The position numbers were made by a program, and so were the translations under genes. Positions 1,699 to 57,046 of a DNA stretch of 64,000 nucleotides are shown piece after piece (the first letter of the stretch is position 1; every line of letters starts with the position of its first letter). This DNA comes from a virus. The notes beneath the pieces are model-generated. The model ran no database searches. It was not told where the DNA came from and was given only the letters and a program-made list of their open reading frames with translations. The DNA is taken from positions 64,001 to 128,000 of the IMG/VR virus record IMGVR_UViG_3300049846_002130. One strand, written 5' to 3'.

Positions 1699-3290
1699 TG
1701 ATTACTCAACGATTAGTAAATACCTATCCTTCTTGGTCTAAGATTCGTAAAGATCCAAGTAGCTTTGGATTTAGATACAGCTCTGTGGCTGGAGAACACT
1801 TTGATTTTGTTTATTCAGAGTTAAAACAAAACTATCTTTCATTCCAGCTTTTAAAAGAGGGTCTTGGACTTGAGGCTCTCTGGCAGATAGACTTAAGTAA
1901 AGACGATTACATACTCTCAACTTCAACAACTGGTGGAAGTTTGAGTTGGGCTTATCCTCAAGTAGTCGGGGATCTCATTGCTCTTGAGAGAATAGAATCT
2001 TTAGAAGAGCTTTACTGGAGTTTACCAACAAGAATCGGACAGCAAGAGGTCTTTACATCTGATTTTATAATTGCGACAAAAACTTATCTAGAACCACCTG
2101 TAATAAACACTATGTCTGTTAGTAGCCGGCTACGCGTAAGGATAACCAATTCTACAAATTGGTTTAAGAGAACAAGCTTTCTTAATAGGCTTGAGCCTGG
2201 CATTCATCGGGTAGTAATTGAGGGCTACGATATTAATGGTGATCTAGTAAGAGAACATCTAGACGTTCTTGATGATGGAGATTACTTTACAAGAAATATA
2301 TTCAGCGAGATTCTTGATGTAGACAGTCAGGGCTTTGATGGCGACATTACACTAGATATGTATAGCGATAAAGTAACCTTGGAGGATCCGTTTCATTTTG
2401 GTATTAGTGACTCTGGCCTCGAAGGGCCACTCTATCTTGAACTAAGCAATAACCTTATTTCTAATACTGGAGAGATAGCTTATTATACTACCTTGGTAAA
2501 ACAAGGAGAAAATTATAAAGATGGAATGAGTGAGATTCCATATAATAGAGAAGACCTGTGGGTACAGGCTCTGTTTGATTCTAGTGGAGATGAGATAGAA
2601 GTTGTGGATATAACAATTAATCCAAACACAACTCGCCTTTATGCTCTTGATAGTAGTGGGAACATACATATTTACGAATATGGTCTTCAACGGTTTACAC
2701 CTCCTACTCAACAAGACTCCTTAACAAAAGCTACGTATATTGATATAGATGCAACACAGCCCTGGGCATCATATGGGCAAACATTAATGATGTTTACCAG
2801 ATTTAATCGTCCAAGATTTCCCGTAAGTAGTGTTCAAATAAAAAGGATTAGTCCAAGTGGTATAATAAATTATCTGCAAGCGGATAAAACATGGTCTGTA
2901 AGTAATTACAGTTTTCCAGGAGACCCAAATGCTAAAGGACTTTTTGAAAATACTTTTAAAGATATCACCTTTGATAATGAGTTTGATGAGTATGGTCAGT
3001 GGGAATTCTATTGCACTACAAATACTGTCCATGACACTACCGTATCTTATACCGGGGTAATGGTTGATTCATTAACAGCTCTTACTACTCTTAGTACTGG
3101 ATTAGATGAGGTAGTATCTATAAATTACTCACACGATAACTATCTTGTTGTAGCTGTTGAGCCATTAATAATTAATGATCCCTATACTCTTTATAAATAT
3201 AAAGAGTACTCTGATGTTTTTCTTGCTGATGAAGAAAATCAATCTTTGTTCTTTAGAGAAGAGTATGCCAATATAGAGGTAAGTTATTAA
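1698..3290 (+). CDS. Virion structural (baseplate-associated) protein
   Basis: 530 aa, TAATG-coupled within the baseplate cluster; no specific motif recognised. Confidence 0.45.
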   Translation: MITQRLVNTYPSWSKIRKDPSSFGFRYSSVAGEHFDFVYSELKQNYLSFQLLKEGLGLEALWQIDLSKDDYILSTSTTGGSLSWAYPQVVGDLIALERIESLEELYWSLPTRIGQQEVFTSDFIIATKTYLEPPVINTMSVSSRLRVRITNSTNWFKRTSFLNRLEPGIHRVVIEGYDINGDLVREHLDVLDDGDYFTRNIFSEILDVDSQGFDGDITLDMYSDKVTLEDPFHFGISDSGLEGPLYLELSNNLISNTGEIAYYTTLVKQGENYKDGMSEIPYNREDLWVQALFDSSGDEIEVVDITINPNTTRLYALDSSGNIHIYEYGLQRFTPPTQQDSLTKATYIDIDATQPWASYGQTLMMFTRFNRPRFPVSSVQIKRISPSGIINYLQADKTWSVSNYSFPGDPNAKGLFENTFKDITFDNEFDEYGQWEFYCTTNTVHDTTVSYTGVMVDSLTALTTLSTGLDEVVSINYSHDNYLVVAVEPLIINDPYTLYKYKEYSDVFLADEENQSLFFREEYANIEVSY

Positions 3291-4162
3291 TGTCTTATAC
3301 CCCTATTAAACAACAGCCAAGAAACGATTTGGATATTCTAGGAACCTATCTAGGTTTTAATAGACTAAAAGATGAGTCACTTTCTGATTACCGTCGACGG
3401 CTTCTGGGCGAAACAGTAGATCGTTCGGGCGCCACTCAGAAAGAGCTAGTCAGCACACTTTCACGACGAGTTGGAAAGTTTGATCTCCCTGTGTTTGATA
3501 TTGACTTATTAACAGACGGAGATGGTGTTCCTTTAGCTTCAAATCCTATGATTGAAGTTACAAGCAGTCATATTCGAGCTTATCCAGTAGTTGGTGAAGA
3601 TCCTGAAATCGAATTAAACTTCTATAACCCATCTGATGGTAAATTTTTAATAGACATACTAACAGCCTTTTCGGGTAGTAGCTATTTTTCCATTACTTCT
3701 TTGGCTAATTATGAGCCATGGTTAGTCTCGAGAAACCTACAGTTTGGGTCAAGTGTTAACTATGTAGATAGAGAAATCTTATTAGACTCTGTTGAAAATA
3801 AGTTAAAATATAATTTTATTCTTAATCTATATCCTACTAATCCTCAGATATTTGTTACTGAAGTAATGTCTTTAAATGAGGTTACCGAATTAGGTAAATA
3901 CTATGTCGACTATCAGAATGGTGTCATATTTACTTACAGTACTATGGGTGGGATTGTAAGTTATTTTTACAATCAGTTTCCCTATAGGCTATTCTGGCAA
4001 CCCATAAAGATATATCCATATACCGATGTAGACAAAAAGTATTTTCACAGAAATACCGTTATTGATGATGATGGTAATCTTGCATATCAAAGTCTCAACT
4101 CTAAAGGTGTCGAGGTAGCTAATTTGGTATACTCTGCTCATCCACTTACATGGGGTAAATAA
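3290..4162 (+). CDS. Baseplate/tail protein (P2 gpI-like N-terminal motif)
   Basis: LDILGTYLGFNRLKDESLSDYRRRLL matches the LD..G...G..R...E.D..YR.R pattern. Confidence 0.55.
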   Translation: MSYTPIKQQPRNDLDILGTYLGFNRLKDESLSDYRRRLLGETVDRSGATQKELVSTLSRRVGKFDLPVFDIDLLTDGDGVPLASNPMIEVTSSHIRAYPVVGEDPEIELNFYNPSDGKFLIDILTAFSGSSYFSITSLANYEPWLVSRNLQFGSSVNYVDREILLDSVENKLKYNFILNLYPTNPQIFVTEVMSLNEVTELGKYYVDYQNGVIFTYSTMGGIVSYFYNQFPYRLFWQPIKIYPYTDVDKKYFHRNTVIDDDGNLAYQSLNSKGVEVANLVYSAHPLTWGK

Positions 4163-7100
4163 TGGCAATAAGTATTTCTGGAGCAGCTAACACTCTTGTA
4201 ACCGATCAGCGGATGCCTCTATCTGTTTTTCTTTCAGGCACCTTTCCTTTAGCTGAAGAGCCTATGGAGGTAGAGGTCACGAGTGAGGACCTTAGCTATT
4301 CTGATACTTTTTCAGTTACAGTTGTTGGTGAAGCTTTAGCTTTTAACGCTACAACTATTCCAACTGTTCCTGGTGGTAGGTATAGTGCTAAGGTCTATGA
4401 GGTTGGAAATCCAAGTAACTTCGATACCTTTCAGTGGTATATTGTTACTGATAGTTTCTCAGATTCTGATCCAGCCGATATAACTTTTATTGGCTTCGAA
4501 CACAAGGAAGCTCAGCGAGATCCCAGTGACCCTCAAAATCCTCCAGGAGATTGGCTTTGGCCATATGACCAGCCAGGGACTTACTACGATAACTATGAGT
4601 TCCACGATGGAGACTACAAGTCTGTTCTTAGATTCAGCAGTGATTGGTCGCATAAGAGTCCGGGAGGGTTTGGCGGAGACTACTCATTAAAAGTTGGCGG
4701 AGGCGTATATGCACCTTACTATCCATCTTATAGTGGTAATACATATATGTCTTTCTTCCTTTGTCGAGGAGATACATCTTCTAGAGAAGTTAGATATATT
4801 TGGCGGCCAGATCCCTTTTTCGGTGCAGGGTTTATAGAAATAGACTTTATGTCTCATGGGTCTGATAGTCTTGGTGGCTACCTATATTTGTTTCAAGATG
4901 GAGCTGTTGAGCTTTATGATAGTGACTCAAATGTTTGGTATGGGTCGGTAGATCCTACCAATGGTGTTGAGAGTGAGTGGAAGTGGACCATTACTTTTGA
5001 TAACCCAGGTAGTATCAAGTTAGAAGTAGGCGGTGTAACTATTGTAGAAGGCACTGGAAACTTTGACAATAATACAGGTGAGGGTCTTGGAAGTATGCTT
5101 ATCGCCCTCCAGGGAGACTTAAGTGCCGACGCTCAGTATTATATAGACGATCTTTTATGTTTTCCGGCGGGTACTTTATCTTCGACACCTAAGTATGTGC
5201 TAGGTGTAAGTCCATCGTCTGATGCTTCAGTTGTTTCAACTCCAAGCTCAGGTTCTATTCGAAACGCAATGGTTAATGAAGATGGAGCTGCATTTGATGA
5301 TGGTGACTACGTTACTTTTACCACCGCTAACTCGACTGATCTTTATGGGATTGAATTTCCTTGGGATGGGATAGTTTGGGGGGTTGTCGCCTTAGGCAAG
5401 CAACAAAGTGATACTACTGACTATCAAGCTACTTTTAGACATACGCTAAGTGATGGTACTAACACTATTTATGGCATGCTCAAAGCTAATAGTATAGGTA
5501 CAGCTGATTATAGAACCTTAAGTAGTGCATTCGACCTGTCACCAAGTGGCGAAACTTGGACAGGGGAAGCTGTTAGTAACCTACTAGTTGGTATCAAAAC
5601 AATAGATATGGTGAGTAGTAATACTCGCTTATCTTGGTACGGTATTGAAGTTTTATGTGATGAGTTAACAGCAGCTATACCAGAAGAGCCAGAACCGGAA
5701 CCAACACCTGCCGAGTACACAGATATCTTAGTGTCACTAAATATATTTAATACAGATTTATCCTCTCTTACCTTAGACCACTCTGGTTTCCTTTGGGATC
5801 GTAGACGCTTAGAAGACTCTTTAGATATAAAGACTAAGTATGAAACTACTTTTGGAGCAGAGGAGTCTGGTATTCGAGATGGTATTCATTTTGACTGGTT
5901 CTCTTCTGGTGTAACAGCAGGATGCAAATACAAGCAGCTGACAAACAAGTATGTGGGAGATTATAAGACTTGGACGCCTGTTGTAGAAAGAGGAATCTAC
6001 AACACTTCTTATCACTTAAAACCTTTGTTTAGTGATTATAGCTATACCTCTAAGTTTGCTACAGATATTCTTGAAGAAGACTCTATGTATCATGTGTTAC
6101 ATAATGATGTAGTCTACTCAACAATAAGAGTTGCTATCTACAAGCGCGATAAAAACCTTATTAATCCATTTTGGGTCTTCAGTCAAGTTGAAGAATTTGA
6201 TGGAGATATTGTTGATGGTGAGCGGACAACCAGAGGTCTTAGTGGATGGGAAACTAATGGGAATCAACGTAAAAAACAATTTAAAGTTGTAGACAATAAA
6301 GTCTATCTAAATGGTAGTCATTATGTTGATCGTCAAATTAACTCCTCCGCCTTGCCAGACACCTATCCTCAGTTTGTAACTGAATATCTTGGACAGAGTA
6401 CGGGACAAGGGACAGTTTTGTTTACTCAATTTCTTCCTGTCCAGCCAGACAGTGTCAGGCTTTGGGTTAAGTTTGGAGACCAATATACAGAGCTAGAAGA
6501 GATTGAAATCTTAGACTACCAGACTGCTCAAGTGCAGGGTTATCAATTTGATCATGATCTCGGTCAGTTTATTTTGACTGGCTATCAAGCTCCACCAGCT
6601 TATTTAACTCAAGATCTCTTAATTACAGATACAACTGTTCATATGAAGACAGAAAATCTATACCTTGATAATTATCCTAAACGAGGTGTAATCCAAGTAG
6701 GTACCGAACGTATTCTTTATACGGATAGAACAAGAACAGAGCTTGTTGATTGTATTCGTGGATATGATAATACCTCTCCTGGTACATATAGTTCTGGATA
6801 CCCTATATCTCATGTAAAGCAAGGAGCTGATGTTGTTGGCCATCTTTATGTGGAATATAAAGCGGTTCCCAGAATAGACTACGAGATAACTAACCATGAT
6901 CTAAGAACAGCTAATAGAGTTGGCTGGTTAGATATTAGGCCCATAAAGAATGTAAATACTAATAGTCTTCTTCAGATATATCCTGGTCAACAGAATATTG
7001 ACCATATTGATCTGTCTACAACTGCACCTCTGTTGGGCGGAGATCTTTACGGTCCTATATATTTGGGAACCAATACTGCACAGTTAACTGCTACAGTCTA

Positions 7101-50154: not shown

Positions 50155-50389
50155 CGTTTTTCTCCATAAAAATTCTATATATATAGCCTAATCTAAAGGC
50201 TGTTGTGAACAGAACGCGAAAAGTCGAGTCTGAAAGATGCTGAGATAGAGCTTCTAAAGCTTTGTTAATAAATAGCTGTTGGTCTTCTTTCTCTGGATTA
50301 GCCATTAGTTTATTAAACAATAAGTCTACTAATTCTTTATTCGTGTATTTAGAAGTACCTGCTGAGGTTTTAACAGACCACATCACCAA
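50096..50389 (-). CDS. Hypothetical protein
   Basis: 97 aa ORF. Confidence 0.45.
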   Translation of the reverse strand: MVMWSVKTSAGTSKYTNKELVDLLFNKLMANPEKEDQQLFINKALEALSQHLSDSTFRVLFTTAFRLGYIYRIFMEKNDVTFESNSAQDTEFSSVSS

Positions 50390-50829
50390 CCTAACATCTT
50401 GGGTAAGGCTGTTCGTATAAGTATACCTAGGGCAGAGAACTCTCCCCCTGAGAGCGAAACTGTTATCATACGAGAGGTTCTATCAGCATCTGTTTGTCTG
50501 ATAGACATTAACCAAGTCCCAGCATACCGCTCATCTGTACTTTCCTTAAAAGAGATGGATTTAGTTGTTCCTTGGTACTCGTGAACAATCTTTGTTGTTT
50601 CTGGGTTTTCTAGTAAATGACAAAGATCTGCAGTACCTAATGCAATTGAAATTTTACCATCTTTCCAGTCGTATAGTTTATTTTCTCCATCTGTTCCAAC
50701 TACTTTTGCTGCTTCAACAAGAATTGCTCCTGCTTTATCCATCCAATCATTGTCTTTAGCTCTGGGAGCAAGAAATGAGAATTTGGCTGCAGCCGAGCCT
50801 TTAAAAATATCAAATGAGCCTGGCTTCAT
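50383..50829 (-). CDS. Whirly-like ssDNA-binding protein
   Basis: IFKGSAAA, GAILVEAA, YDW, ..H., EFSAL...LPKMLGW parallel the plant Whirly motifs YKGKAAL, GFVLLQFA, YDWS, FFHD, EFAVL...PYLLGW. Confidence 0.75.
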   Translation of the reverse strand: MKPGSFDIFKGSAAAKFSFLAPRAKDNDWMDKAGAILVEAAKVVGTDGENKLYDWKDGKISIALGTADLCHLLENPETTKIVHEYQGTTKSISFKESTDERYAGTWLMSIRQTDADRTSRMITVSLSGGEFSALGILIRTALPKMLGW

Positions 50830-51103: not shown

Positions 51104-51134
51104 AAAGTGGTCGGAGATTAACTCCGACCACTTT
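51104..51134 (-). terminator. Probable terminator closing the Ubl operon
   Basis: 13-bp perfect stem aaagtggtcggag/ctccgaccacttt overlapping the stop at 51118. Confidence 0.65.
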
Positions 51135-51291
51135 CTACCTGTATGTTCCAAGCTTTTAATCCTCTATAAACTTCATACATTTTTATATCAGGATTTTGTT
51201 TACATCTTTCGATGAAGCCAGGAACATTGGCTTTGATTTGAGATAAGGCTTCTTTACATTGCTTAGGGGAATATACTTCCGTCCCAAACAT
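51118..51291 (-). CDS. Small hypothetical protein coupled to Ubl
   Basis: ATG at 51291 overlaps the Ubl TAA (TAATG); 57 aa. Confidence 0.55.
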   Translation of the reverse strand: MFGTEVYSPKQCKEALSQIKANVPGFIERCKQNPDIKMYEVYRGLKAWNIQVESGRS

Positions 51292-51512
51292 TAGAAAGCG
51301 CCTTTGGATCCCTGGACTGCCCAAATCTCTTCTACGCCATCTACACAGGTAGTAGAGAACTCACTAGGAGCTACCTCAGTTTCGCCACCAAGAAGAATCT
51401 TATAGGTGCTATCGATCTGTAGGTGAGACACTACATCTTGAACGGTAGTGCCCTGGGTAACTTGGACTGTCTTGGTGTTCCCCGCGGGAACAAATAGTAC
51501 ATGAATTGTCAT
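51291..51512 (-). CDS. Ubiquitin-like (beta-grasp) protein
   Basis: 73 aa; TIHVLFV / TKTVQV / TVQDVVSHL / YKILLGG / EIWAV beta-grasp order; tail QGSKG-AF; adjacent to E1. Confidence 0.8.
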   Translation of the reverse strand: MTIHVLFVPAGNTKTVQVTQGTTVQDVVSHLQIDSTYKILLGGETEVAPSEFSTTCVDGVEEIWAVQGSKGAF

Positions 51513-52222
51513 TCTATCTCCTTTAAGTTGTATTGCTTTACAAATAGTTTACTATCTTTCATAACTGTAATTGTTCCATATGGATATTTAAAGGCACTAG
51601 TTGTTGCTTTAGCAACCAGTAGCGTACAAATATATTGTACCATATAGGCAGATATCGTAGTTACAAGAGTGGAACATAGACGCTGATTACAAGGGCCTTC
51701 TGGAATGAGGCTATCATCCATAAAGCTATCTGTCCACTGTCTATATAGTTCAGAGTTTAAAGGATTTATTACATGTATTTCTCCATGTTCAAATCCAAGG
51801 CGTGCTTCAATAGCTAACAGTATATTTGTGTTATACAAGATACCTTGTGATATATCTTTTCGACTCTTCATAGAGTCGGTAGCTATTATTAAAAAGCCCT
51901 CCACATGCGCAGCATCAGCTGCGCTAGTATAAAACCTATTATATGTTTTTACTTCTATGTCTGGATTAAATTCACGAAGCAACTCTGACAATGCTTCTAC
52001 TTTAGATTTTCCTATATGTTTGGGAAAGAACTGCTGATTTGCTAGATTATAGTCTTCAACAACATCTGCATCATAAAGAACAAACTTTTTAAATCCCATA
52101 CGGGCCGCGATCATAGCAACATTAGAGCCAACACCCCCACATCCAACAATAACTATTGGATGTGTTATCATATTTGGATGTAGCCATCCAGAATGTCTTA
52201 GAAATGATGGCTTATTCTCCAT
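51509..52222 (-). CDS. E1-like / ThiF-family adenylyltransferase
   Basis: IVGCGGVGS, YDADVVEDYNLANQ, GKSKVEAL, ATDSMKSR; candidate Cys in EGPCNQRLC. Confidence 0.92.
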   Translation of the reverse strand: MENKPSFLRHSGWLHPNMITHPIVIVGCGGVGSNVAMIAARMGFKKFVLYDADVVEDYNLANQQFFPKHIGKSKVEALSELLREFNPDIEVKTYNRFYTSAADAAHVEGFLIIATDSMKSRKDISQGILYNTNILLAIEARLGFEHGEIHVINPLNSELYRQWTDSFMDDSLIPEGPCNQRLCSTLVTTISAYMVQYICTLLVAKATTSAFKYPYGTITVMKDSKLFVKQYNLKEIE

Positions 52223-52733
52223 ACTCGATTCCTTTAAAGAGCATTAATAGTTCTTTTAATACTTTTACTTTTTCTGTAGAGCTAGATTCTTTAAATACGG
52301 AGTTATCAACAAGATATAATGTTGTAGCTAAAAGTAAAACTAATACATTTGCATCAACAGCAGTTGTAGAAAACATCTTAGTTATTTCTGATAAGCTTAC
52401 TGGCTCAAATATATCTTTTATTGGTACTTTCTTTTCTTTAGCCGAAGTAACTATACGATGAAGCCTTATTGTAATACCTAGCCATCGTAATGCTTTATTT
52501 CTATCAAGTCCCCAACCTTTCAATAACAAAAGGAATCTATCTAAATGAGTCTGGATAGATGAAGGAGTCATTGCTTCCACTAAGGATTCACCTGCTTCGA
52601 GTAGGTAGCTAAGTTTATATGGCTCGAAATCTGGTGACTCAATAATTTTAGTAATGAATTGATTTTTATTTATAAAGTCTATCTGTTGTTTATCAAATAG
52701 ATTTATAAATTTATAGTTACTTCGGCCTAGTGT
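52212..52733 (-). CDS. Helical domain, probably the -1 frameshift extension of the JAB protein
   Basis: Frame is open 51 codons upstream of the annotated GTG (52580), back to the G-GGA-AAA site at 52739-52733. Confidence 0.55.
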   Translation of the reverse strand, partial: TLGRSNYKFINLFDKQQIDFINKNQFITKIIESPDFEPYKLSYLLEAGESLVEAMTPSSIQTHLDRFLLLLKGWGLDRNKALRWLGITIRLHRIVTSAKEKKVPIKDIFEPVSLSEITKMFSTTAVDANVLVLLLATTLYLVDNSVFKESSSTEKVKVLKELLMLFKGIEYGE

Positions 52734-53467
52734 TTTCCCATATAGTGAAACACAAAATCAGTTTGATCAGTAGTCGTTGTAGTGTCTTTCGAGGTCGTCG
52801 TACCAGCATACACGCTCTGAGCTAAAGGGGCGGGTGGACTTCCTCCAGAAGTTACTGTAACTACAGAACTCTTTTTACTAACCAAAGAGCTGATAGCACT
52901 ATCTATTTTCTTATAGTTATAGCTGTTTTCAACAGCTATTGGAGGCTGCTCGATTATAATCCCATCTAGACTTGGATCAAAGACTCTGCAATAAATATCA
53001 CGTTTCTGATTAAAGATTAGCATTGCTTTTGGTGTAGTAGCATCTTTAATTAGAGCTGTCCAGTTTTCTTGATCAGTACCAGTAGGCTTTGCTTCCATAT
53101 TAACATGGGAATGGCACCAAGCTCCTGCCTCAGACATCAAAGTCTTAAGCTCCGTAGCAGTAAGATTACGGTCTTTCTTAAGTTGTTGCCACATCTCAGC
53201 TAAGTCTGCTGGCTCACTATCAACTGTTATTGTGGTAACAGTTTGCTTTGGTATAAAGATATCACTAATTCGATAAAATATCTTACCGTTTTGACGCTCT
53301 GAATAATCTGGTATTATTCTAGAGTACCACTGACCCTCAAACGTCTTAAGTTCATCTACAAAGTATTCGCTTAACTCTAAACATTCTTGATCAAAAACCA
53401 CATAATATTTATAAGCAGTAGTAAGAGTTGGAGTCCTTTCTGCTATTAGTTTCTTAGATAGTGTCAT
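52727..53467 (-). CDS. JAB/MPN+ metallo-isopeptidase
   Basis: FEGQW, ISDIFIPKQTV, WCHSHVNMEAKPTGTD (JAMM HxH-x7-S/T-x2-D). Confidence 0.88.
   Translation of the reverse strand: MTLSKKLIAERTPTLTTAYKYYVVFDQECLELSEYFVDELKTFEGQWYSRIIPDYSERQNGKIFYRISDIFIPKQTVTTITVDSEPADLAEMWQQLKKDRNLTATELKTLMSEAGAWCHSHVNMEAKPTGTDQENWTALIKDATTPKAMLIFNQKRDIYCRVFDPSLDGIIIEQPPIAVENSYNYKKIDSAISSLVSKKSSVVTVTSGGSPPAPLAQSVYAGTTTSKDTTTTTDQTDFVFHYMGKH
52733..52739 (-). promoter_or_regulatory. Candidate -1 ribosomal frameshift heptamer G GGA AAA
   Basis: X-XXY-YYZ in the correct frame, one sense codon before the JAB stop; -1 frame open for 173 codons. Confidence 0.6.
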
Positions 53468-53474
53468 CTATTTT

Positions 53475-55175
53475 TTAACCTTCTTCGTAAAGTGGAAACC
53501 ATGTATACTCTGCTCCCCACTGGTCCTTACTGTTAACCGATGTAACCCATGAATCAACTGCGTAAAACAACTGACCCAAATCTCCCTCAGAGATTGCCCT
53601 TTTAATATTTGCTTCTGCTTCTCCGAAACAAATTTTAGTTGGTTTATTATAAGCTGATTTTATGCTTTTGACATCTTTTCTATTCATAGCTGTTGCAGCT
53701 GAGTGTGGATGAGCCTTGATATTTACAATATCTCCTATAGCTGGAGAGATACCTATAATAGAACTTAAATCTAGAGGATATATTTTTCCAATTAGATCTC
53801 CTCTATAAGAATAACCAATACTTATTCTGTAGGGTCCTGCTACAACTAAAGTTGTATTAGTTCCTTTTTCTGCTTTATCAACATATAGAATTGAAGGCTT
53901 TATAGTCTGCAGCTCAATATTTAAACTTTGAATTCTATCTTTTTCTTCTATAAGCTCTTTTAAAAAGATACTGTATTTATCTTCTGTATTTAAATCTAAC
54001 TCTGTATAAGAATTATACATGGTCTCTATAGTAATAGCTTGTAAGCTATAATTAGATAAAAGTCCAAGGCCCAAAAATTTACAGAATGTTTTTGTATTTT
54101 TAAGTGTATTAAGATATATTTCTGCAGCTAAGTTACTATTGGTTTTCGCTATAGTTAAACTTTCTTTAATCTTTTGATGGGTTTCTAGATAACCTTTAAG
54201 CTTTAATTCAAGATCTTTAATAAGATTTTGATTACTTTCTACATTTTTTGTAACTGAAAGATCCTCAGAAAGAAGGGTATTTAAAAGATTAGTTTTAGTT
54301 TGAAATTCTTTTGCTCTTTCTTTTAATAAGATATATTCTTGTGATGGTCTTGGAATAAAGAGAGGCTCAGCTTTAAAGTCTTTGTCTACTTGTAGCTCAG
54401 TATCAATCTTATTTGCATCTTCTGGTGTAAGTAGCTCTGCTAAAACATTCCAGTTTTTAGTTAAGCTATTAAGATTAGTTAGGTCAATAGGCTTATTGAA
54501 AGCTGCGGCCCCACTATTAAGATACTTAATCATAAACTCGTGAATAGTTTTACCATAGGTGGCATATAGCTTTGCACTACATTTTGGTAAAACCATTACA
54601 TTGTGATTAACTATAGTATTATTAGCTTTTATAAATGGTAGGTTTAAGAAGAATACTTTTGGTGTCCTTGGATTCAAGGGCAAGTCTTCAACAACCACAT
54701 CCTTTAGAGAATTGGTCACGATATCGAAAACTGTAATACTATCTTTTGGTAATTGAGTTTTTAATATATTTAATAATGAATTATTAGAAAAGATAAAGGT
54801 TGAGTAGTCTCCAACATGACCATTAACTTTAGAACACCAACTTAATGCTTCTGTATACTTTATTGAATGCCAATCTTTGTCTAGTAGACTAGTTAAGCTT
54901 TCTAACTGTTTATAACTTAAATTAGGTAAGCTTGGTATTTTAAAATTAGGTAGTGTTGGATGTATGAATAGCAATATCTTAGGAATAAGATTGCTATAGT
55001 ATAATTCTCTTCCTCCTGGAAGTGTTTGGGGCTCAAAGGTGGAGGAAAGTGAAATTTTTGATTCTACGTAAACGTTATTTTCTTTTCTTCTATACATAAC
55101 TAACTGTTTAGTAGCAGACTGTGCTTCTAAAAAGTGGTTGCCTATTAATGCGTCAGTTGATAAAACAATACTCAT
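53475..55175 (-). CDS. Large protein with C-terminal E2 (UBC-like) domain
   Basis: GPYRISI...AHPHS...KICFGE...W...N..D.WG resembles the E2 HP(N/H)...C motif; located between the JAB gene and upstream operon genes. Confidence 0.65.
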   Translation of the reverse strand: MSIVLSTDALIGNHFLEAQSATKQLVMYRRKENNVYVESKISLSSTFEPQTLPGGRELYYSNLIPKILLFIHPTLPNFKIPSLPNLSYKQLESLTSLLDKDWHSIKYTEALSWCSKVNGHVGDYSTFIFSNNSLLNILKTQLPKDSITVFDIVTNSLKDVVVEDLPLNPRTPKVFFLNLPFIKANNTIVNHNVMVLPKCSAKLYATYGKTIHEFMIKYLNSGAAAFNKPIDLTNLNSLTKNWNVLAELLTPEDANKIDTELQVDKDFKAEPLFIPRPSQEYILLKERAKEFQTKTNLLNTLLSEDLSVTKNVESNQNLIKDLELKLKGYLETHQKIKESLTIAKTNSNLAAEIYLNTLKNTKTFCKFLGLGLLSNYSLQAITIETMYNSYTELDLNTEDKYSIFLKELIEEKDRIQSLNIELQTIKPSILYVDKAEKGTNTTLVVAGPYRISIGYSYRGDLIGKIYPLDLSSIIGISPAIGDIVNIKAHPHSAATAMNRKDVKSIKSAYNKPTKICFGEAEANIKRAISEGDLGQLFYAVDSWVTSVNSKDQWGAEYTWFPLYEEG

Positions 55176-55178
55176 TTG

Positions 55179-55637
55179 TTACCCATTGTTAATAAAAGCT
55201 TTTGCTAAGTTTTCAATAAAATAATTAAGCACAAGGTTTCTTGATTTAGTATCATCAAGAATTTTAGGCCCTAAGAGAGAGATACCTAATTTAGTGGCTG
55301 AATTATTTTTTCTGTTATCCAGTCCAAAGTCTTCTAAGATCAGATCTACTTTTTTAGTATCAAGATAAATAAACTCTTTATTTAAGATTGTTTTAATTAT
55401 TCCTGCAGGCATGGGGAATAAGGTTGCTGCACCACGCGCAAAACAAGCACTTGACTGAAAATCAAAATATGGAGAAAGAATGTTTATTACTTCAGTATCC
55501 AACAAGCAGCCTTCTCTCATATAATAACCTAACAAAGCTTTCTGTAGGTTTGAGTAAACAAATGGGTTATTTAAATCCCATTTGTTCATATATATACTCC
55601 AACACATCTGCCCCATCAGGGGCATTGATAAGCTCAT
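55179..55637 (-). CDS. Hypothetical protein in Ubl operon
   Basis: 152 aa, coupled. Confidence 0.45.
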   Translation of the reverse strand: MSLSMPLMGQMCWSIYMNKWDLNNPFVYSNLQKALLGYYMREGCLLDTEVINILSPYFDFQSSACFARGAATLFPMPAGIIKTILNKEFIYLDTKKVDLILEDFGLDNRKNNSATKLGISLLGPKILDDTKSRNLVLNYFIENLAKAFINNG

Positions 55638-55833
55638 CTATATCTATAGATATACCTATCGAATAGCAGATAGGACAAATATTACTTATATCGTCTCTAG
55701 TTGCTTTATAGCCACATTCTAATTCTGAACATATAAAGTACTTAGAAGCCAATTCCTGGTTTTCTGCTAGGGGTGGCTTTAGATTTTCTACTAATGACAA
55801 ATTCTTCATCCTTAGCAATATGTTTCTGTACAA
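55567..55833 (-). CDS. Zinc-ribbon protein
   Basis: CSELEC...CPIC; start uncertain. Confidence 0.5.
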   Translation of the reverse strand: MYRNILLRMKNLSLVENLKPPLAENQELASKYFICSELECGYKATRDDISNICPICYSIGISIDIDELINAPDGADVLEYIYEQMGFK

Positions 55834-57046
55834 GAAGTAGTTTTAAGTTTTTTTCTATTGTTCTTATACTGTCGTGAGTTAGTAGATTACTAATATCTAA
55901 GTCATTAGTAATAGTGTCTGAAATAGATAATTCTTTAGAAATCTTTGGAATAAGTTTGTTTTTTATAAGTTCCTTAAGCTCTTCAGTAGAATAGTTTCTG
56001 AAATGAACTTCGGTTAATCGATCTCTAAACGGCTTAGATAGTTTAGTATTGTCATTACTTGTAAATATAAAGGTAATGTTAGAAACATCAATAGGTTGAT
56101 TTATATAAGCATCTACCCAATTGGTATTCTGGCTTGGATCTAATAAACTTAAAAAGCTATTTTGTACTTCCGTGGAGCTTTTATCTATCTCGTCACATAC
56201 AAGAATTGGGTTTAAGCATTTGGTATTAATTAGTTCTTGAACTATAATTCCTGGAGAACTATTTGTATACGTTCTTAGGAAGCCAGAAACATAATTTTTA
56301 TCAGTCTTATCTCCGAGACTAAACACTCTCATTGGAGTTTCTAGTAGCTTTGCTAAATCATATGCAAACGTAGTTTTACCTACACCAGGAGGCCCACTAA
56401 ATAATAATGGTGGAAGGCCAGGCTTATCTAAGAAATAAGAGTAGCGTATGGTTAAGTACAACATAAGCTGATCTTCTTTTGATAAAGGTAAGACTTCTAT
56501 AAGATTTTTTATCTCTCCAATAGCATATTTTAAAGGTAGAGTTGTTTTAGGGATTTGGTCTAGGTACTGAATATAATTATTTAGATTATTATATTCAGTA
56601 GATCCAGGAACGAGTTTAGATAAACTGGACTTTAAAGAAAGCAACTTATTTGTTTTTTCTAAAAGAAACATAAGTGCTTCTTGAGAAGATAGCTCAAGAT
56701 ATTTTGCTCTTTCCTCTAAAGATGTCAGTATTAGTTCTGCTTTGCTATCTAATTCTTCAGTTGAAAAGCAATTAAGTGCATTAGCTTCTAGGGGCTCTGC
56801 AGAAATTGGTTCATATATATTACTTGTATAGTCTCTACAGAATATTTTAGATGTTGGTACAAATCTAATATTAGAGTCTTCAGGAAAAGCAGAGCCTATA
56901 TAACCTATAGTAAGTAGTTTGTCTTTATATGTAATTAGAACTACTGCTTCATATGGTTCTTGCGAATAGGGCTCAATATTAATTAATTTAAAACTTTGTA
57001 AGTATATAGGAATATGTACTTGTAATGGGACTATATGTATTCTCAT
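55742..57046 (-). CDS. Lon-type AAA+ ATPase lacking the protease domain, C-terminal IGF
   Basis: PGSTEYNNLNNYIQYLDQIP, GPPGVGKT, YTNSSPG.IVQ, NPILVCDEIDK, LLDPSQN..WVD.Y, FRDR; ends RKPGIGF. Confidence 0.85.
   Translation of the reverse strand: MRIHIVPLQVHIPIYLQSFKLINIEPYSQEPYEAVVLITYKDKLLTIGYIGSAFPEDSNIRFVPTSKIFCRDYTSNIYEPISAEPLEANALNCFSTEELDSKAELILTSLEERAKYLELSSQEALMFLLEKTNKLLSLKSSLSKLVPGSTEYNNLNNYIQYLDQIPKTTLPLKYAIGEIKNLIEVLPLSKEDQLMLYLTIRYSYFLDKPGLPPLLFSGPPGVGKTTFAYDLAKLLETPMRVFSLGDKTDKNYVSGFLRTYTNSSPGIIVQELINTKCLNPILVCDEIDKSSTEVQNSFLSLLDPSQNTNWVDAYINQPIDVSNITFIFTSNDNTKLSKPFRDRLTEVHFRNYSTEELKELIKNKLIPKISKELSISDTITNDLDISNLLTHDSIRTIEKNLKLLLVQKHIAKDEEFVISRKSKATPSRKPGIGF

What the first reader, a model, noticed from the sequence alone, without database searches (positions are those of the whole stretch)
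51118..55175. Phage-encoded ubiquitin-like conjugation system: E2-like, JAB, E1 and Ubl in one operon
Seen: contiguous coupled genes for a C-terminal E2-like domain (HPH...ICFG), a JAMM peptidase (HSH-x7-T-x2-D), an E1/ThiF enzyme (GCGGVG; Cys in GPCNQRLC) and a 73-aa beta-grasp protein, closed by a terminator. No thiamine/molybdopterin or sulfur-transfer genes are nearby. Known: bacterial E1-E2-JAB-Ubl systems (CBASS Cap2/Cap3, Bil, PRTRC cassettes) conjugate proteins, and Bil ubiquitylates phage proteins as a host defence. Inference: the phage carries its own ubiquitylation machinery to tag host defence factors or its own proteins, or to counter host Ubl defences.
Basis: partly seen in the sequence, partly recalled or inferred. 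Interest (0 to 1): 0.92.

Follow-up and report, generated by a model that had tools for sequence, protein, structure and literature searches.

The report
Phage-borne ubiquitin-like tagging cassette
A complete 183-kb uncultured phage carries its own operon for a small ubiquitin-like tag, the enzyme that activates it, a trimming protease made in two forms by a ribosomal frameshift, and a large protein with an invariant cysteine that probably passes the tag on; such kits have so far been characterised only as bacterial anti-phage defences.

Summary
The genes, motifs and terminator are at the stated coordinates, in a complete 183,528-bp phage genome with direct terminal repeats.

**Well supported:**
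- A ThiF/E1 enzyme with a full adenylation site and an invariant crossover-loop Cys178.
- A JAB/JAMM peptidase.
- A 73-aa beta-grasp protein whose family ends in an invariant Lys-Gly followed by a variable tail, so it is made as a precursor.

**Not shown:** that the 566-aa protein is an E2.
- Its C-terminal domain defines a large, un-catalogued family of 278 clusters. HPH, Cys516, GP and D-x-WG are invariant.
- No E2 profile matches it. Foldseek finds nothing for a confident model.
- E2 enzymes only head a weak list (best Z 4.6), tied with Rad50 lobes.

**New here:**
- The order Cys-domain protein, JAB, E1, Ubl holds in 11 of 11 loci.
- The apparent 147-nt gap is coding. A -1 slip at GGGAAAA joins JAB to a 173-codon extension. 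Three relative lineages use three different slippery sites, and most relatives are fused.
- The whole genome holds no sulfur-relay partner.

**Reading:** a virus-owned protein-tagging pathway with an unknown target.

This scan has noted similar phage cassettes on other DNA. I found no paper describing one.

The parts
53475..55175 (-). 566-aa protein with three regions: a variable, poorly modelled N-terminal part (about residues 1-270), a long coiled coil (279-369), and a conserved C-terminal Cys/His domain. It is the candidate Ubl carrier or ligase (functional E2 or E2/E3 hybrid).
   Evidence: ORF. AlphaFold2 with 124 sequences gave pLDDT 70.8, with helices at 279-369 and the C-terminal domain above 90. 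Relatives run from 550 to 1150 aa, nearly always with the domain in their C-terminal part. N-termini vary, and 4 of 62 carry a WGR domain.
53478..53933 (-). C-terminal Cys/His domain (residues about 415-566). It carries G447-P448, H489-P490-H491, C516-x-G518-E-A, W543, D551-x-W553-G554 and F560-P561.
   Evidence: 278 clusters at 50% identity match the domain profile, 246 of them at E <= 1e-10. The Cys, the second His and the Asp are 150/150, and the first His is 147/150. The domain model has pLDDT 91.8 and pTM 0.85, with the Cys at the N-terminal end of a helix. No Pfam family matches. Best solved-structure matches are E2 enzymes at Z <= 4.6.
52727..53467 (-). JAB/JAMM metallopeptidase, short form of 246 aa (E44 ... 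H119-S-H121-x7-T129-x2-D132). It probably trims the Ubl tail and may also remove conjugates.
   Evidence: PADLOC JAB models at 0.0026-0.018. 34 of 60 family members match Pfam Prok-JAB, best 5.1e-6. The catalytic residues are invariant in 60 relatives. 131 relatives were found, and one source names one of them RPN8/RPN11.
52733..52739 (-). Slippery heptamer G-GGA-AAA, 10 nt before the JAB stop codon (TAG at 52729-52727). This is the proposed programmed -1 frameshift site.
   Evidence: Sequence. The same heptamer lies at the same distance from the stop in L002 and L009. L003 and L010 have A-AAA-AAA / A-AAA-AAG, and L011 has an A9 run, each where the -1 frame opens.
52212..52733 (-). -1-frame extension of JAB: 173 codons plus the stop. 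It gives a 418-aa long form (JAB 1-245 plus 173 residues). The domain is helical and of unknown function. The mechanical ORF list shows only its last 122 codons (52212-52580).
   Evidence: The -1 frame is open from just before the heptamer to the E1 start, with no ATG, GTG or TTG before 52580. The -1 translation is conserved from the first codon after the heptamer, at 42% identity to L009 and 19% to L002. About 100 of the 120 listed relatives are single 336-421-aa proteins. The gene is fused in L004, L006 and L012-L014.
51509..52222 (-). Minimal ThiF-type E1 of 237 aa. It has a complete adenylation site and an invariant Cys178 (Cys183 nearly invariant) in G-P-C-N-Q-R-L-C.
   Evidence: Pfam ThiF 5.2e-28. 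The best solved relative is UBA5 at 6.4e-12, and the EGPC segment lines up with the EGVC segment of UBA5. Invariant residues are listed. PADLOC CBASS 'E1-E2' models match only residues about 21-95.
51291..51512 (-). Ubl precursor of 73 aa with a beta-grasp fold. It ends ...Q-G-S-K70-G71-A-F, so the predicted mature C-terminus is Gly71.
   Evidence: The ESM Atlas model has pLDDT 0.78. Its structural neighbours are ThiS clusters (TM 0.74-0.77) and ThiS/SAMP2 (0.72). K-G is invariant in relatives and is followed by A, AF, ASVT, ADEV, N, NI or a long tail. L014 has a tandem di-Ubl.
51118..51291 (-). 57-aa ORF coupled to the Ubl gene through a TAATG overlap. Its function is unknown, and its membership of the system is not established.
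   Evidence: Sequence. A clear homologue sits at the same place in L002. No BLAST similarity to the ORF at that place in L004.
51104..51134 (-). Intrinsic terminator closing the operon.
   Evidence: 13-bp stem with 7 G-C pairs, a 5-nt loop and a T-rich tail. It is the strongest of 6 terminator-like sites found, against 2.4 expected.

Best explanation
This is a phage-owned ubiquitin-like protein-conjugation pathway expressed as one operon.

Steps inferred from family knowledge and the anatomy:
1. The 73-aa beta-grasp protein is made as a precursor. The JAB peptidase cuts after Lys70-Gly71 to expose the glycine.
2. The minimal ThiF-type E1 adenylates Gly71 and takes the Ubl onto Cys178 as a thioester.
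3. The Ubl passes to the invariant Cys516 of the C-terminal domain of the 566-aa protein. There the invariant His489/His491 and Asp551 shape the active site.
4. The variable N-terminal region and coiled coil of that protein choose the target, so it acts as an E2/E3 hybrid in function.
5. JAB also reverses conjugation.

JAB is made in two forms. A 246-aa enzyme ends at the stop codon. A 418-aa enzyme arises by a -1 ribosomal slip on G-GGA-AAA and carries a helical extension that may dock it on a partner.

Shown here: the identity of E1, JAB and the Ubl precursor, the invariant Cys/His domain, the strict synteny, the frameshift architecture and the lack of sulfur-relay partners.

Inferred: every chemical step, the role of Cys516 and the target.
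For: **E1.** Pfam ThiF 5.2e-28. The adenylation residues and Cys178 are invariant. The Cys segment aligns with the UBA5 catalytic-Cys segment.

**JAB.** The motif is invariant. 34 of 60 relatives match Prok-JAB.

**Ubl.** The predicted beta-grasp fold resembles ThiS and SAMP2. K-G is invariant with variable tails, and one relative has a di-Ubl. Some BilA homologues likewise carry 2-9-aa overhangs after their conserved Gly.

**Cys/His domain.** 150/150 Cys and 150/150 His. The model is confident. About 24 of the top 50 rows in an exhaustive structure comparison are E2 or UEV chains, each aligning over about 105-112 residues.

**Co-inheritance.** All four genes appear in the same order in 11 of 11 loci. 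Those loci were retrieved through three different components.

**No sulfur partners.** The whole genome has no ThiG, MoaE, rhodanese or TtuA-type partner.

**Frameshift.**
Against: - No E2 sequence model matches the domain or 62 relatives.
- Foldseek finds no E2.
- The best Z of 4.6 is below the usual noise level for unmatched models and is tied with Rad50 head lobes at Z 4.2.
- The HPH-to-Cys spacing is 24 residues with an inserted strand and helix, against about 7-8 in classical E2s (my knowledge).
- I could not see which residues the structural alignments pair, so Cys516 has not been placed on the E2 catalytic Cys.
- The E1 has no ubiquitin-fold domain to recruit an E2.
- JAB, E1 and a tailed Ubl also occur in sulfur-carrier pathways such as QbsCDE and CysO/Mec+ (my knowledge).
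- No experiment exists, and the target is unknown.
- The frameshift has no well-placed stimulator. The nearest hairpin starts 22 nt after the heptamer.
- The extension shows no detectable homology to the C-terminal part of fused relatives.
Confidence: 0.6

Rival explanations
1. The system conjugates without an E2, as archaeal SAMP/UbaA and Thermus TtuB/TtuC do. E1 alone transfers the Ubl. The 566-aa protein is then not a carrier. It could be the main substrate, a scaffold, a thiol isopeptidase or a Cys-dependent E3-type ligase that merely travels with the operon.
For: The domain is not recognisably an E2 by any sequence model or by Foldseek. Structure matches are weak and tied with unrelated folds. 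A Cys at a helix N-terminus with nearby His residues also fits thiol hydrolases (for the position; the rest is my knowledge). The minimal E1 lacks an E2-docking domain.
Against: An invariant Cys, two His and an Asp across 150 diverse representatives point to catalysis rather than a substrate or scaffold. No papain-like, NlpC/P60 or other thiol-peptidase fold appeared in any structure search. E2 and RWD chains are by far the most frequent class among the top matches. A JAB peptidase is already present for cleavage.
Confidence: 0.2
2. The biochemistry is the same but the role differs. The cassette would be a weapon against competing phages (superinfection exclusion) or against host Ubl-based defences, rather than a core part of the phage's own replication cycle.
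For: The characterised relatives Bil and type II CBASS act in phage-host conflict. The N-terminal region of the Cys-domain protein is highly variable, as expected for a part under arms-race pressure.
Against: The cassette has the same position and order in every relative, between the replication genes and the Whirly, PhoH and SpoVG genes. It is not in a variable island. Distant [unknown]-[JAB]-[ThiF] triads in crAss-like and FpV4-like phages also sit next to primase and uracil-DNA glycosylase genes.
Confidence: 0.12
3. The small protein is a sulfur carrier of the ThiS/MoaD/QbsE/CysO type. E1 makes an acyl-adenylate that becomes a thiocarboxylate, JAB only trims the tail, and no protein is tagged. 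The sulfur would go to a cofactor, a tRNA or DNA.
For: The nearest named sequence models of the E1 are ThiF and MoeB, all far below their cut-offs. The Ubl's structural neighbours are ThiS clusters. JAB-trimmed sulfur carriers exist (my knowledge; gene neighbourhoods of this class are tabulated in Iyer et al. 2006). The phage carries tRNA genes.
Against: The complete 183-kb genome has no MoaE or rhodanese and no ThiG above the cut-off. Its only PP-loop enzyme is TilS-type, which uses no sulfur. The strictly linked Cys/His-domain protein with a coiled coil has no place in a sulfur relay. A di-Ubl precursor occurs in a relative.
Confidence: 0.08

Closest known systems
Bil (BilABCD, types I/II; operon class 6d of Iyer et al. 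2006), a bacterial anti-phage Ubl conjugation system
   Same: Four separate genes for Ubl, a Cys-bearing carrier, a JAB peptidase and a ThiF-type E1. The Ubl ends in a conserved Gly that in some homologues is followed by a short overhang. The presumed chemistry runs through E1 and carrier thioesters.
   Different: - This cassette is encoded by a lytic-type 183-kb phage, inside its replication module.
- The carrier is the C-terminal domain of a 566-aa (550-1150 aa in relatives) coiled-coil protein from a family with no Pfam or PADLOC model.
- Its HPH motif lies 24 residues before the Cys.
- JAB has a frameshift-made extension.
- The gene order differs.
- PADLOC matched only CBASS-type E1-E2 and JAB models.
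Type II CBASS Cap2 (E2-E1 fusion) and Cap3 (JAB)
   Same: These give the best defence-library matches: the E1 Rossmann region to 'E1-E2' models at 1.4e-17 and JAB at 0.0026. Both systems have a minimal E1 with the catalytic Cys inside the adenylation domain.
   Different: There is no CD-NTase substrate, E1 is not fused to E2, and a free Ubl is present. The matches cover only about 75-100 residues of the E1.
UBA5 (E1 of UFM1), a minimal non-canonical eukaryotic E1
   Same: It is the best solved-structure sequence match, at 6.4e-12. It is a single adenylation domain whose catalytic Cys sits in the E-G-x-C segment that aligns with E-G-P-C178 here.
   Different: That segment's alignment is not significant on its own. 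There is no UFC1-type E2 and no UFM1-interacting tail.
E2-less prokaryotic Ubl systems (SAMP/UbaA/HvJAMM1; TtuB/TtuC)
   Same: A ThiS/MoaD-like beta-grasp tag, a MoeB-like E1 and a JAMM peptidase. SAMP2 gives weak profile hits to the Ubl.
   Different: Those tags end in free Gly-Gly and double as sulfur carriers alongside sulfur-relay partners. Here the tag is a tailed precursor, no sulfur partner exists, and an extra invariant-Cys protein is always linked.
Lambda/T1 tail-assembly TAPI (Ubl) and TAPK (JAB + NlpC/P60)
   Same: It is the only phage-borne Ubl plus JAB pairing I found in the literature.
   Different: It has no E1 and no carrier, and it lies in the tail module. This cassette is in the replication module.
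Programmed -1 frameshifts that make two isoforms (dnaX tau/gamma; lambda G/GT at G-GGA-AAG)
   Same: An X-XXY-YYZ heptamer just before a stop codon, giving a short and a C-terminally different or extended product. The heptamer differs from lambda's by one base (my knowledge).
   Different: This one sits in a JAB peptidase gene. No close stimulatory structure was found, and the efficiency is unknown.

Membership tests
ThiF/MoeB/E1 adenylating enzymes (PF00899) | Profile match above the curated cut-off | tested here: met
   98.2 bits against a cut-off of 28.1, E 5.2e-28, residues 23-208. The whole-genome search gives the same single hit.
ThiF/MoeB/E1 adenylating enzymes (PF00899) | ATP-binding GxGxxG, N-terminal Arg finger, ribose- and Mg-binding Asp residues, and a conserved Lys | tested here: met
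   R9, G27/G29/G32, D51, N59, Q63, K74 and D116 are invariant in 17 relatives. Assigning them to MoeB positions is my inference.
Thioester-forming (conjugating) E1 | Catalytic Cys in the crossover region that forms a Ubl thioester | tested here: inconclusive
   C178 is invariant and C183 nearly so. The segment lines up with the EGVC segment of UBA5, but that alignment piece is not significant by itself. Thioester formation cannot be tested here.
JAB/JAMM/MPN+ metallopeptidases | E ... HxH-x7-S/T-xx-D metal site | tested here: met
   E44, H119, H121 and D132 are invariant in 60 relatives. Position 129 is Ser in at least 90% of them and Thr in the window.
JAB/JAMM/MPN+ metallopeptidases | Profile match to JAB families | tested here: inconclusive
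   The window protein gives only PADLOC JAB hits at 0.0026-0.018 and no Pfam hit. At family level, 34 of 60 relatives match Prok-JAB at E <= 0.01, best 5.1e-6.
Ubiquitin-like beta-grasp modifiers | Beta-grasp fold | tested here: met
   The ESM Atlas model has pLDDT 0.78 and pTM 0.70. TM is 0.72-0.77 to ThiS and SAMP2 clusters over 66-71 residues. This compares predicted models only. Sequence profiles give only weak SAMP2 hits.
Ubiquitin-like beta-grasp modifiers | Conserved C-terminal Gly, free or exposed by processing | tested here: met
   K-G is invariant in 12 Ubl ORFs from 11 loci, followed by 1-4 variable residues, a long tail or a second Ubl domain. The cleavage itself was not tested.
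E2 / UBC superfamily (UQ_con, Prok-E2_A-E) | Profile match to an E2 family | tested here: not met
   No Pfam, NCBIfam, PADLOC or PHROG match for the window protein. No Pfam E2 match for 5 domain sequences or 62 full-length relatives. No PDB sequence match with profiles. The only trace is an ESM Atlas feature lead to Prok-E2_D at 0.88, below the tool's own 0.9 line.
E2 / UBC superfamily (UQ_con, Prok-E2_A-E) | UBC alpha/beta fold | tested here: inconclusive
   The model has pLDDT 91.8. Foldseek finds no hit at E <= 0.001. In the exhaustive comparison, UBE2S scores Z 4.6 at rmsd 3.8 A over 109 residues. About 24 of the 50 rows are E2 or UEV chains and about 6 are RWD domains. All are below Z 5 and tied with Rad50 lobes.
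E2 / UBC superfamily (UQ_con, Prok-E2_A-E) | HPN-type motif shortly before a catalytic Cys that lies between the sheet and the crossover helix | tested here: inconclusive
   HPH and the Cys are invariant. The Cys sits just before a helix that follows the sheet. However, the spacing is 24 residues with an inserted strand and helix, and I could not obtain residue-level superposition on an E2.
Bil (BilABCD) operons | Recognisable BilA/B/C/D homologues in one operon | tested here: inconclusive
   The four functional classes are present, but PADLOC returned only CBASS 'E1-E2' and 'JAB' models. I did not verify which Bil models that library holds.
PRTRC cassette | PRTRC-type ThiF (TIGR03736) above its cut-off | tested here: not met
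   37.2 bits against a cut-off of 144.75.
Sulfur-carrier systems (ThiS/ThiF, MoaD/MoeB, TtuB/TtuC) | A sulfur acceptor or relay enzyme (ThiG, MoaE, rhodanese, TtuA) in the genome | tested here: not met
   The complete genome has no MoaE and no rhodanese. ThiG gives only a 15-bit sub-threshold hit. The one PP-loop enzyme is TilS-type at 5.6e-34. Host enzymes could still serve.
Programmed -1 ribosomal frameshift | An X-XXY-YYZ heptamer in the 0 frame at the point where an open, conserved -1 frame begins | tested here: met
   GGGAAAA lies 10 nt before the stop in the window, L002 and L009. Other heptamers lie at the frame junction in L003, L010 and L011. All six downstream ORFs are in the -1 frame. 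The -1 peptide is conserved from the slip site.
Programmed -1 ribosomal frameshift | A stimulatory element 5-9 nt downstream, or an upstream Shine-Dalgarno-like element | tested here: not met
   The only stable hairpin starts 22 nt after the heptamer (-12.7 kcal/mol, z -2.75). The stop codon one codon after the site may serve instead (inference).

The most novel reading that the evidence does not exclude
A broad clade of 150-200-kb aquatic phages carries, as a core replication-module function, a self-contained ubiquitin-like conjugation pathway. Its carrier enzyme belongs to a previously uncatalogued Cys/His domain family: either a new branch of the UBC superfamily too diverged to recognise, or an independent invention. 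That enzyme is built as an E2/E3 hybrid with a swappable N-terminal targeting region. Its deconjugating JAB enzyme is produced as two isoforms by a programmed -1 frameshift that has been re-invented with three different slippery sites. Viruses of bacteria would then use protein tagging offensively or for their own replication, mirroring the host's Bil and CBASS systems.
Probability: 0.4. Interest if true: 0.85.

Novelty: new variant of a known kind. Interest (0 to 1): 0.72.

Why it matters
Ubiquitin-like conjugation in the bacterial world has been shown only for host-encoded defences (type II CBASS, Bil, Bub). A complete virus-encoded version would show that phages also use protein tagging, and it would give a compact six-gene system to test.

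The version here is widespread: 278 clusters of the carrier domain at 50% identity. It is fixed in the replication module, and it is built around a carrier domain that no catalogue recognises.

It also raises a concrete evolutionary question: is the Cys/His domain a very deep branch of the E2 fold or a convergent thioester carrier?

Finally, the repeatedly re-created -1 frameshift in the JAB gene is a clean comparative case of selection for two enzyme isoforms.

Tried and rejected
- **Nucleotide search against GenBank phages.** No match for the cassette. tblastn with the Cys/His domain also found nothing.
- **IMG/VR scans.** The three-sequence full-length alignment and the single E1 found nothing. 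The domain alignment found three loci.
- **Genome-contig scans.** They could not be run because no alignment stretch was conserved enough. Whether cellular genomes hold the family is therefore untested.
- **Structure searches with the whole 566-aa model.** Foldseek found nothing. The exhaustive aligner returned only coiled coils. I therefore folded the domain alone.
- **PDB sequence profiles.** Those of the domain, JAB and Ubl gave nothing usable. The deep full-length profile gave only coiled-coil noise.
- **crAss-like and FpV4-like phages.** Both have [about 400-aa unknown]-[Prok-JAB about 425 aa]-[ThiF] triads. I tested whether their upstream protein belongs to the same family. My HMMs found nothing and hhalign matched only the GGPY patch. 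Their Cys-x-Gly lies before GGPY and they have no HPH. I rejected them as members and kept them as a lead, because BFVD gave weak structural hits to them.
- **Homology of the frameshift extension to fused relatives.** Not detectable against their C-terminal part.
- **Flanking ORFs.** The upstream 152-aa ORF and the downstream 57-aa ORF are conserved only in the close clade, so I did not count them as core parts.
- **PP-loop enzyme elsewhere in the genome.** I considered it as a TtuA-type sulfur acceptor and rejected it as TilS-type.
- **Literature.** Seven searches and five papers turned up no description of a phage-encoded E1/carrier/JAB/Ubl cassette. The library lacks most subscription journals.
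- **Lost tool.** The script machine failed, so the E1 residue tally was redone with the alignment tool.

Full report
**Context.** The window is bases 64001-128000 of a 183,528-bp virus record with direct terminal repeats, rated 100% complete. It encodes a baseplate wedge protein, a primase-helicase, a DNA polymerase, a UvsX-like recombinase and ribonucleotide reductase, plus two tRNAs. The cassette is therefore phage-encoded. No GenBank phage matches it at the DNA level.

**Observation.** On the minus strand lie ORFs of 566 aa (53475-55175), 246 aa (52727-53467), 237 aa (51509-52222) and 73 aa (51291-51512).
- The genes are separated by 7 nt or overlap by 11, 4 and 1 nt.
- A 13-bp G+C-rich hairpin with a T-tail at 51134-51104 closes the run.

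**E1.** The 237-aa protein matches Pfam ThiF at 5.2e-28, well above the cut-off.
- Seventeen relatives keep an N-terminal Arg, GxGxxG, the Asp, Asn, Gln, Lys and Asp residues of the adenylation site, and Cys178.
- Its best solved relative is UBA5 at 6.4e-12. The E-G-P-C178 stretch lines up with UBA5's E-G-V-C stretch, which I recall as the catalytic Cys250. That piece of the alignment is not significant alone.
- It is far below the cut-offs of ThiF, MoeB, PRTRC and SAMP-E1 equivalog models.
- It is a minimal E1 with a cysteine where conjugating E1s of this type have theirs.

**JAB.** The window protein alone gives only weak PADLOC JAB hits.
- A profile search found 131 relatives.
- 34 of 60 relatives match Pfam Prok-JAB.
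- E44, H119, H121 and D132 are invariant.

**Ubl.** Sequence profiles give only marginal SAMP2 and ubiquitin-like hits.
- The ESM Atlas holds a fair model (pLDDT 0.78). Its structural neighbours are ThiS and SAMP2 clusters at TM 0.72-0.77.
- In 12 Ubl ORFs from 11 loci, Lys-Gly is invariant. It is followed by A, AF, ASVT, ADEV, N, NI, a long tail, or, in L014, a second Ubl domain.
- This is the signature of a precursor whose glycine must be exposed by a peptidase. Some BilA homologues likewise carry 2-9-residue overhangs after their conserved glycine.

**The 566-aa protein.** A word-indexed search found only two relatives. An exhaustive profile search with its last 150 residues found 278 clusters, 246 of them at E <= 1e-10. 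The domain nearly always lies in the C-terminal part of proteins of 550-1150 aa.
- Across 150 representatives, G-P, H-P-H, C-x-G-E/D-A, D-x-W-G and F-P are invariant or nearly so.
- AlphaFold2 models the N-terminus poorly, shows a long coiled coil at 279-369, and gives a confident C-terminal domain.
- Folded alone, the domain reaches pLDDT 91.8.

**Is it an E2?**
- Against:
  - No Pfam E2 family matches it or 62 relatives.
  - Foldseek finds nothing significant in the PDB.
  - The best exhaustive match is only Z 4.6, below what unmatched models usually reach.
- For:
  - That best match is UBE2S, at 3.8 A over 109 residues.
  - About 24 of the 50 listed rows are E2 or UEV chains, and about 6 are RWD domains of the same superfamily.
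  - The order of elements is sheet, HPH, Cys at the start of a helix, then two helices, which is E2-like.
- Rad50 head lobes tie with the E2s at Z 3.5-4.2.
- My conclusion is that an E2-like fold is possible but not shown.
- The functional argument rests on the invariant Cys/His site and on strict linkage to the other three genes.

**Linkage.** I retrieved loci through three different components: the big protein (L002, L012-L014), E1 (L003-L006) and JAB (L009-L011). Every locus has the Cys-domain protein, JAB, E1 and Ubl in that order. Most lie on contigs of about 150-200 kb, beside Whirly, PhoH and SpoVG genes.

**Frameshift.**
- JAB ends ATG GGA AAA CAC TAG.
- The -1 frame is open from just before G-GGA-AAA to the E1 start codon, with no start codon for 50 codons.
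- L002 and L009 have the same heptamer at the same distance from their stop.
- L003 and L010 have A-AAA-AAA / A-AAA-AAG, and L011 has an A9 run, each exactly where their -1 frame opens.
- The -1 peptide is conserved from the first codon after the slip site.
- About 100 of the 120 listed relatives, and L004, L006 and L012-L014, are single proteins of 336-421 aa.
- The window should therefore make a 246-aa JAB and a 418-aa JAB with an extension.
- Weak points:
  - There is no well-placed stimulatory hairpin.
  - The extension shows no detectable sequence homology to the tails of the fused forms.
  - On the A-runs, transcriptional slippage is an alternative.

**Sulfur-carrier rival.** The complete genome has no MoaE, no rhodanese and no ThiG above threshold. 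Its one PP-loop enzyme is TilS-type, not TtuA-type. Host enzymes cannot be excluded.

**Comparison with known systems.** The system works like Bil, with four separate genes and a Gly-ended Ubl that has overhangs in some members. It is not demonstrably a member of that family.
- It shares the minimal-E1 design of Cap2 and UBA5.
- It differs from all of them in being phage-encoded, in its unrecognised carrier domain on a large coiled-coil protein, and in the frameshifted JAB.
- The only phage Ubl/JAB pair I found in the literature is the lambda TAPI/TAPK tail-assembly pair, which has no E1.
- Seven literature searches found no description of a phage E1/carrier/JAB/Ubl cassette.
- Within this scan, similar phage cassettes have been noted repeatedly on other DNA. 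One of them has Gly-Asn-ended tags like those of L011-L014. Those are unchecked notes and not evidence.

**Verdict.** The cassette is a real, widespread, phage-owned Ubl system in which E1, JAB and the Ubl precursor are solid. The E2 is a candidate carrier of an uncatalogued family, and the target and biological role are unknown.

Noticed in passing
window 52212-52739 (minus strand): A programmed -1 frameshift at G-GGA-AAA joins the JAB peptidase to a 173-codon extension. Relatives use three different slippery sites or are fused.
   Followed up: yes
window 55742-57046 (minus strand): A 434-aa AAA+ ATPase (Pfam AAA 6.4e-14; phrog_15585) lies two to three ORFs upstream of the cassette. AAA+ genes also lie upstream in L003 and L004. 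Whether it acts on Ubl-tagged proteins is untested.
   Followed up: no
L003 2027-2584, L004 2094-2795, L010 258-908, L011 1-552: A Trypsin_2 serine protease gene sits on the opposite strand just upstream of the cassette in four relatives. I did not look for one in the window.
   Followed up: no
L014 7411-7698 and 7767-8198: One relative has two Ubl genes. One carries a long Gly/Arg-rich tail after K-G. The other is a tandem di-Ubl, like a polyubiquitin precursor.
   Followed up: partly
L007 (Flavobacterium phage FpV4, 2548-5618) and L008 (crAss-like Kolpuevirus, 2298-5705): Cultured phages carry [about 400-aa unknown]-[about 425-aa protein with Prok-JAB]-[ThiF] next to uracil-DNA glycosylase and primase genes. 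The upstream protein shares a GGPY patch and gives weak BFVD structural hits, but its motifs are in a different order. This may be a distant analogue of the cassette.
   Followed up: partly
relatives of the 566-aa protein (alignment A9): 4 of 62 family members carry a WGR domain (best 1.5e-14) in the variable N-terminal region. This hints that some members are aimed at nucleic-acid-bound targets.
   Followed up: no
G000:C1:170500-174000 (L015), outside the window: A run of small auxiliary genes: a TilS-type PP-loop enzyme (5.6e-34), a RelA/SpoT-family fragment, a NADAR-family protein and a Nudix hydrolase.
   Followed up: partly
window 55179-55637 and 51118-51291 (minus strand): Two small ORFs abut the cassette. 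The upstream one probably starts at Met17 and is 44% identical to its L002 counterpart. The downstream one is a 57-aa ORF overlapping the Ubl stop. Both are conserved only in the closest clade.
   Followed up: partly
window 50383-50829 and relatives: Whirly-domain, PhoH and SpoVG genes follow the cassette in the same order in most relatives. This is a conserved replication-module backbone.
   Followed up: no
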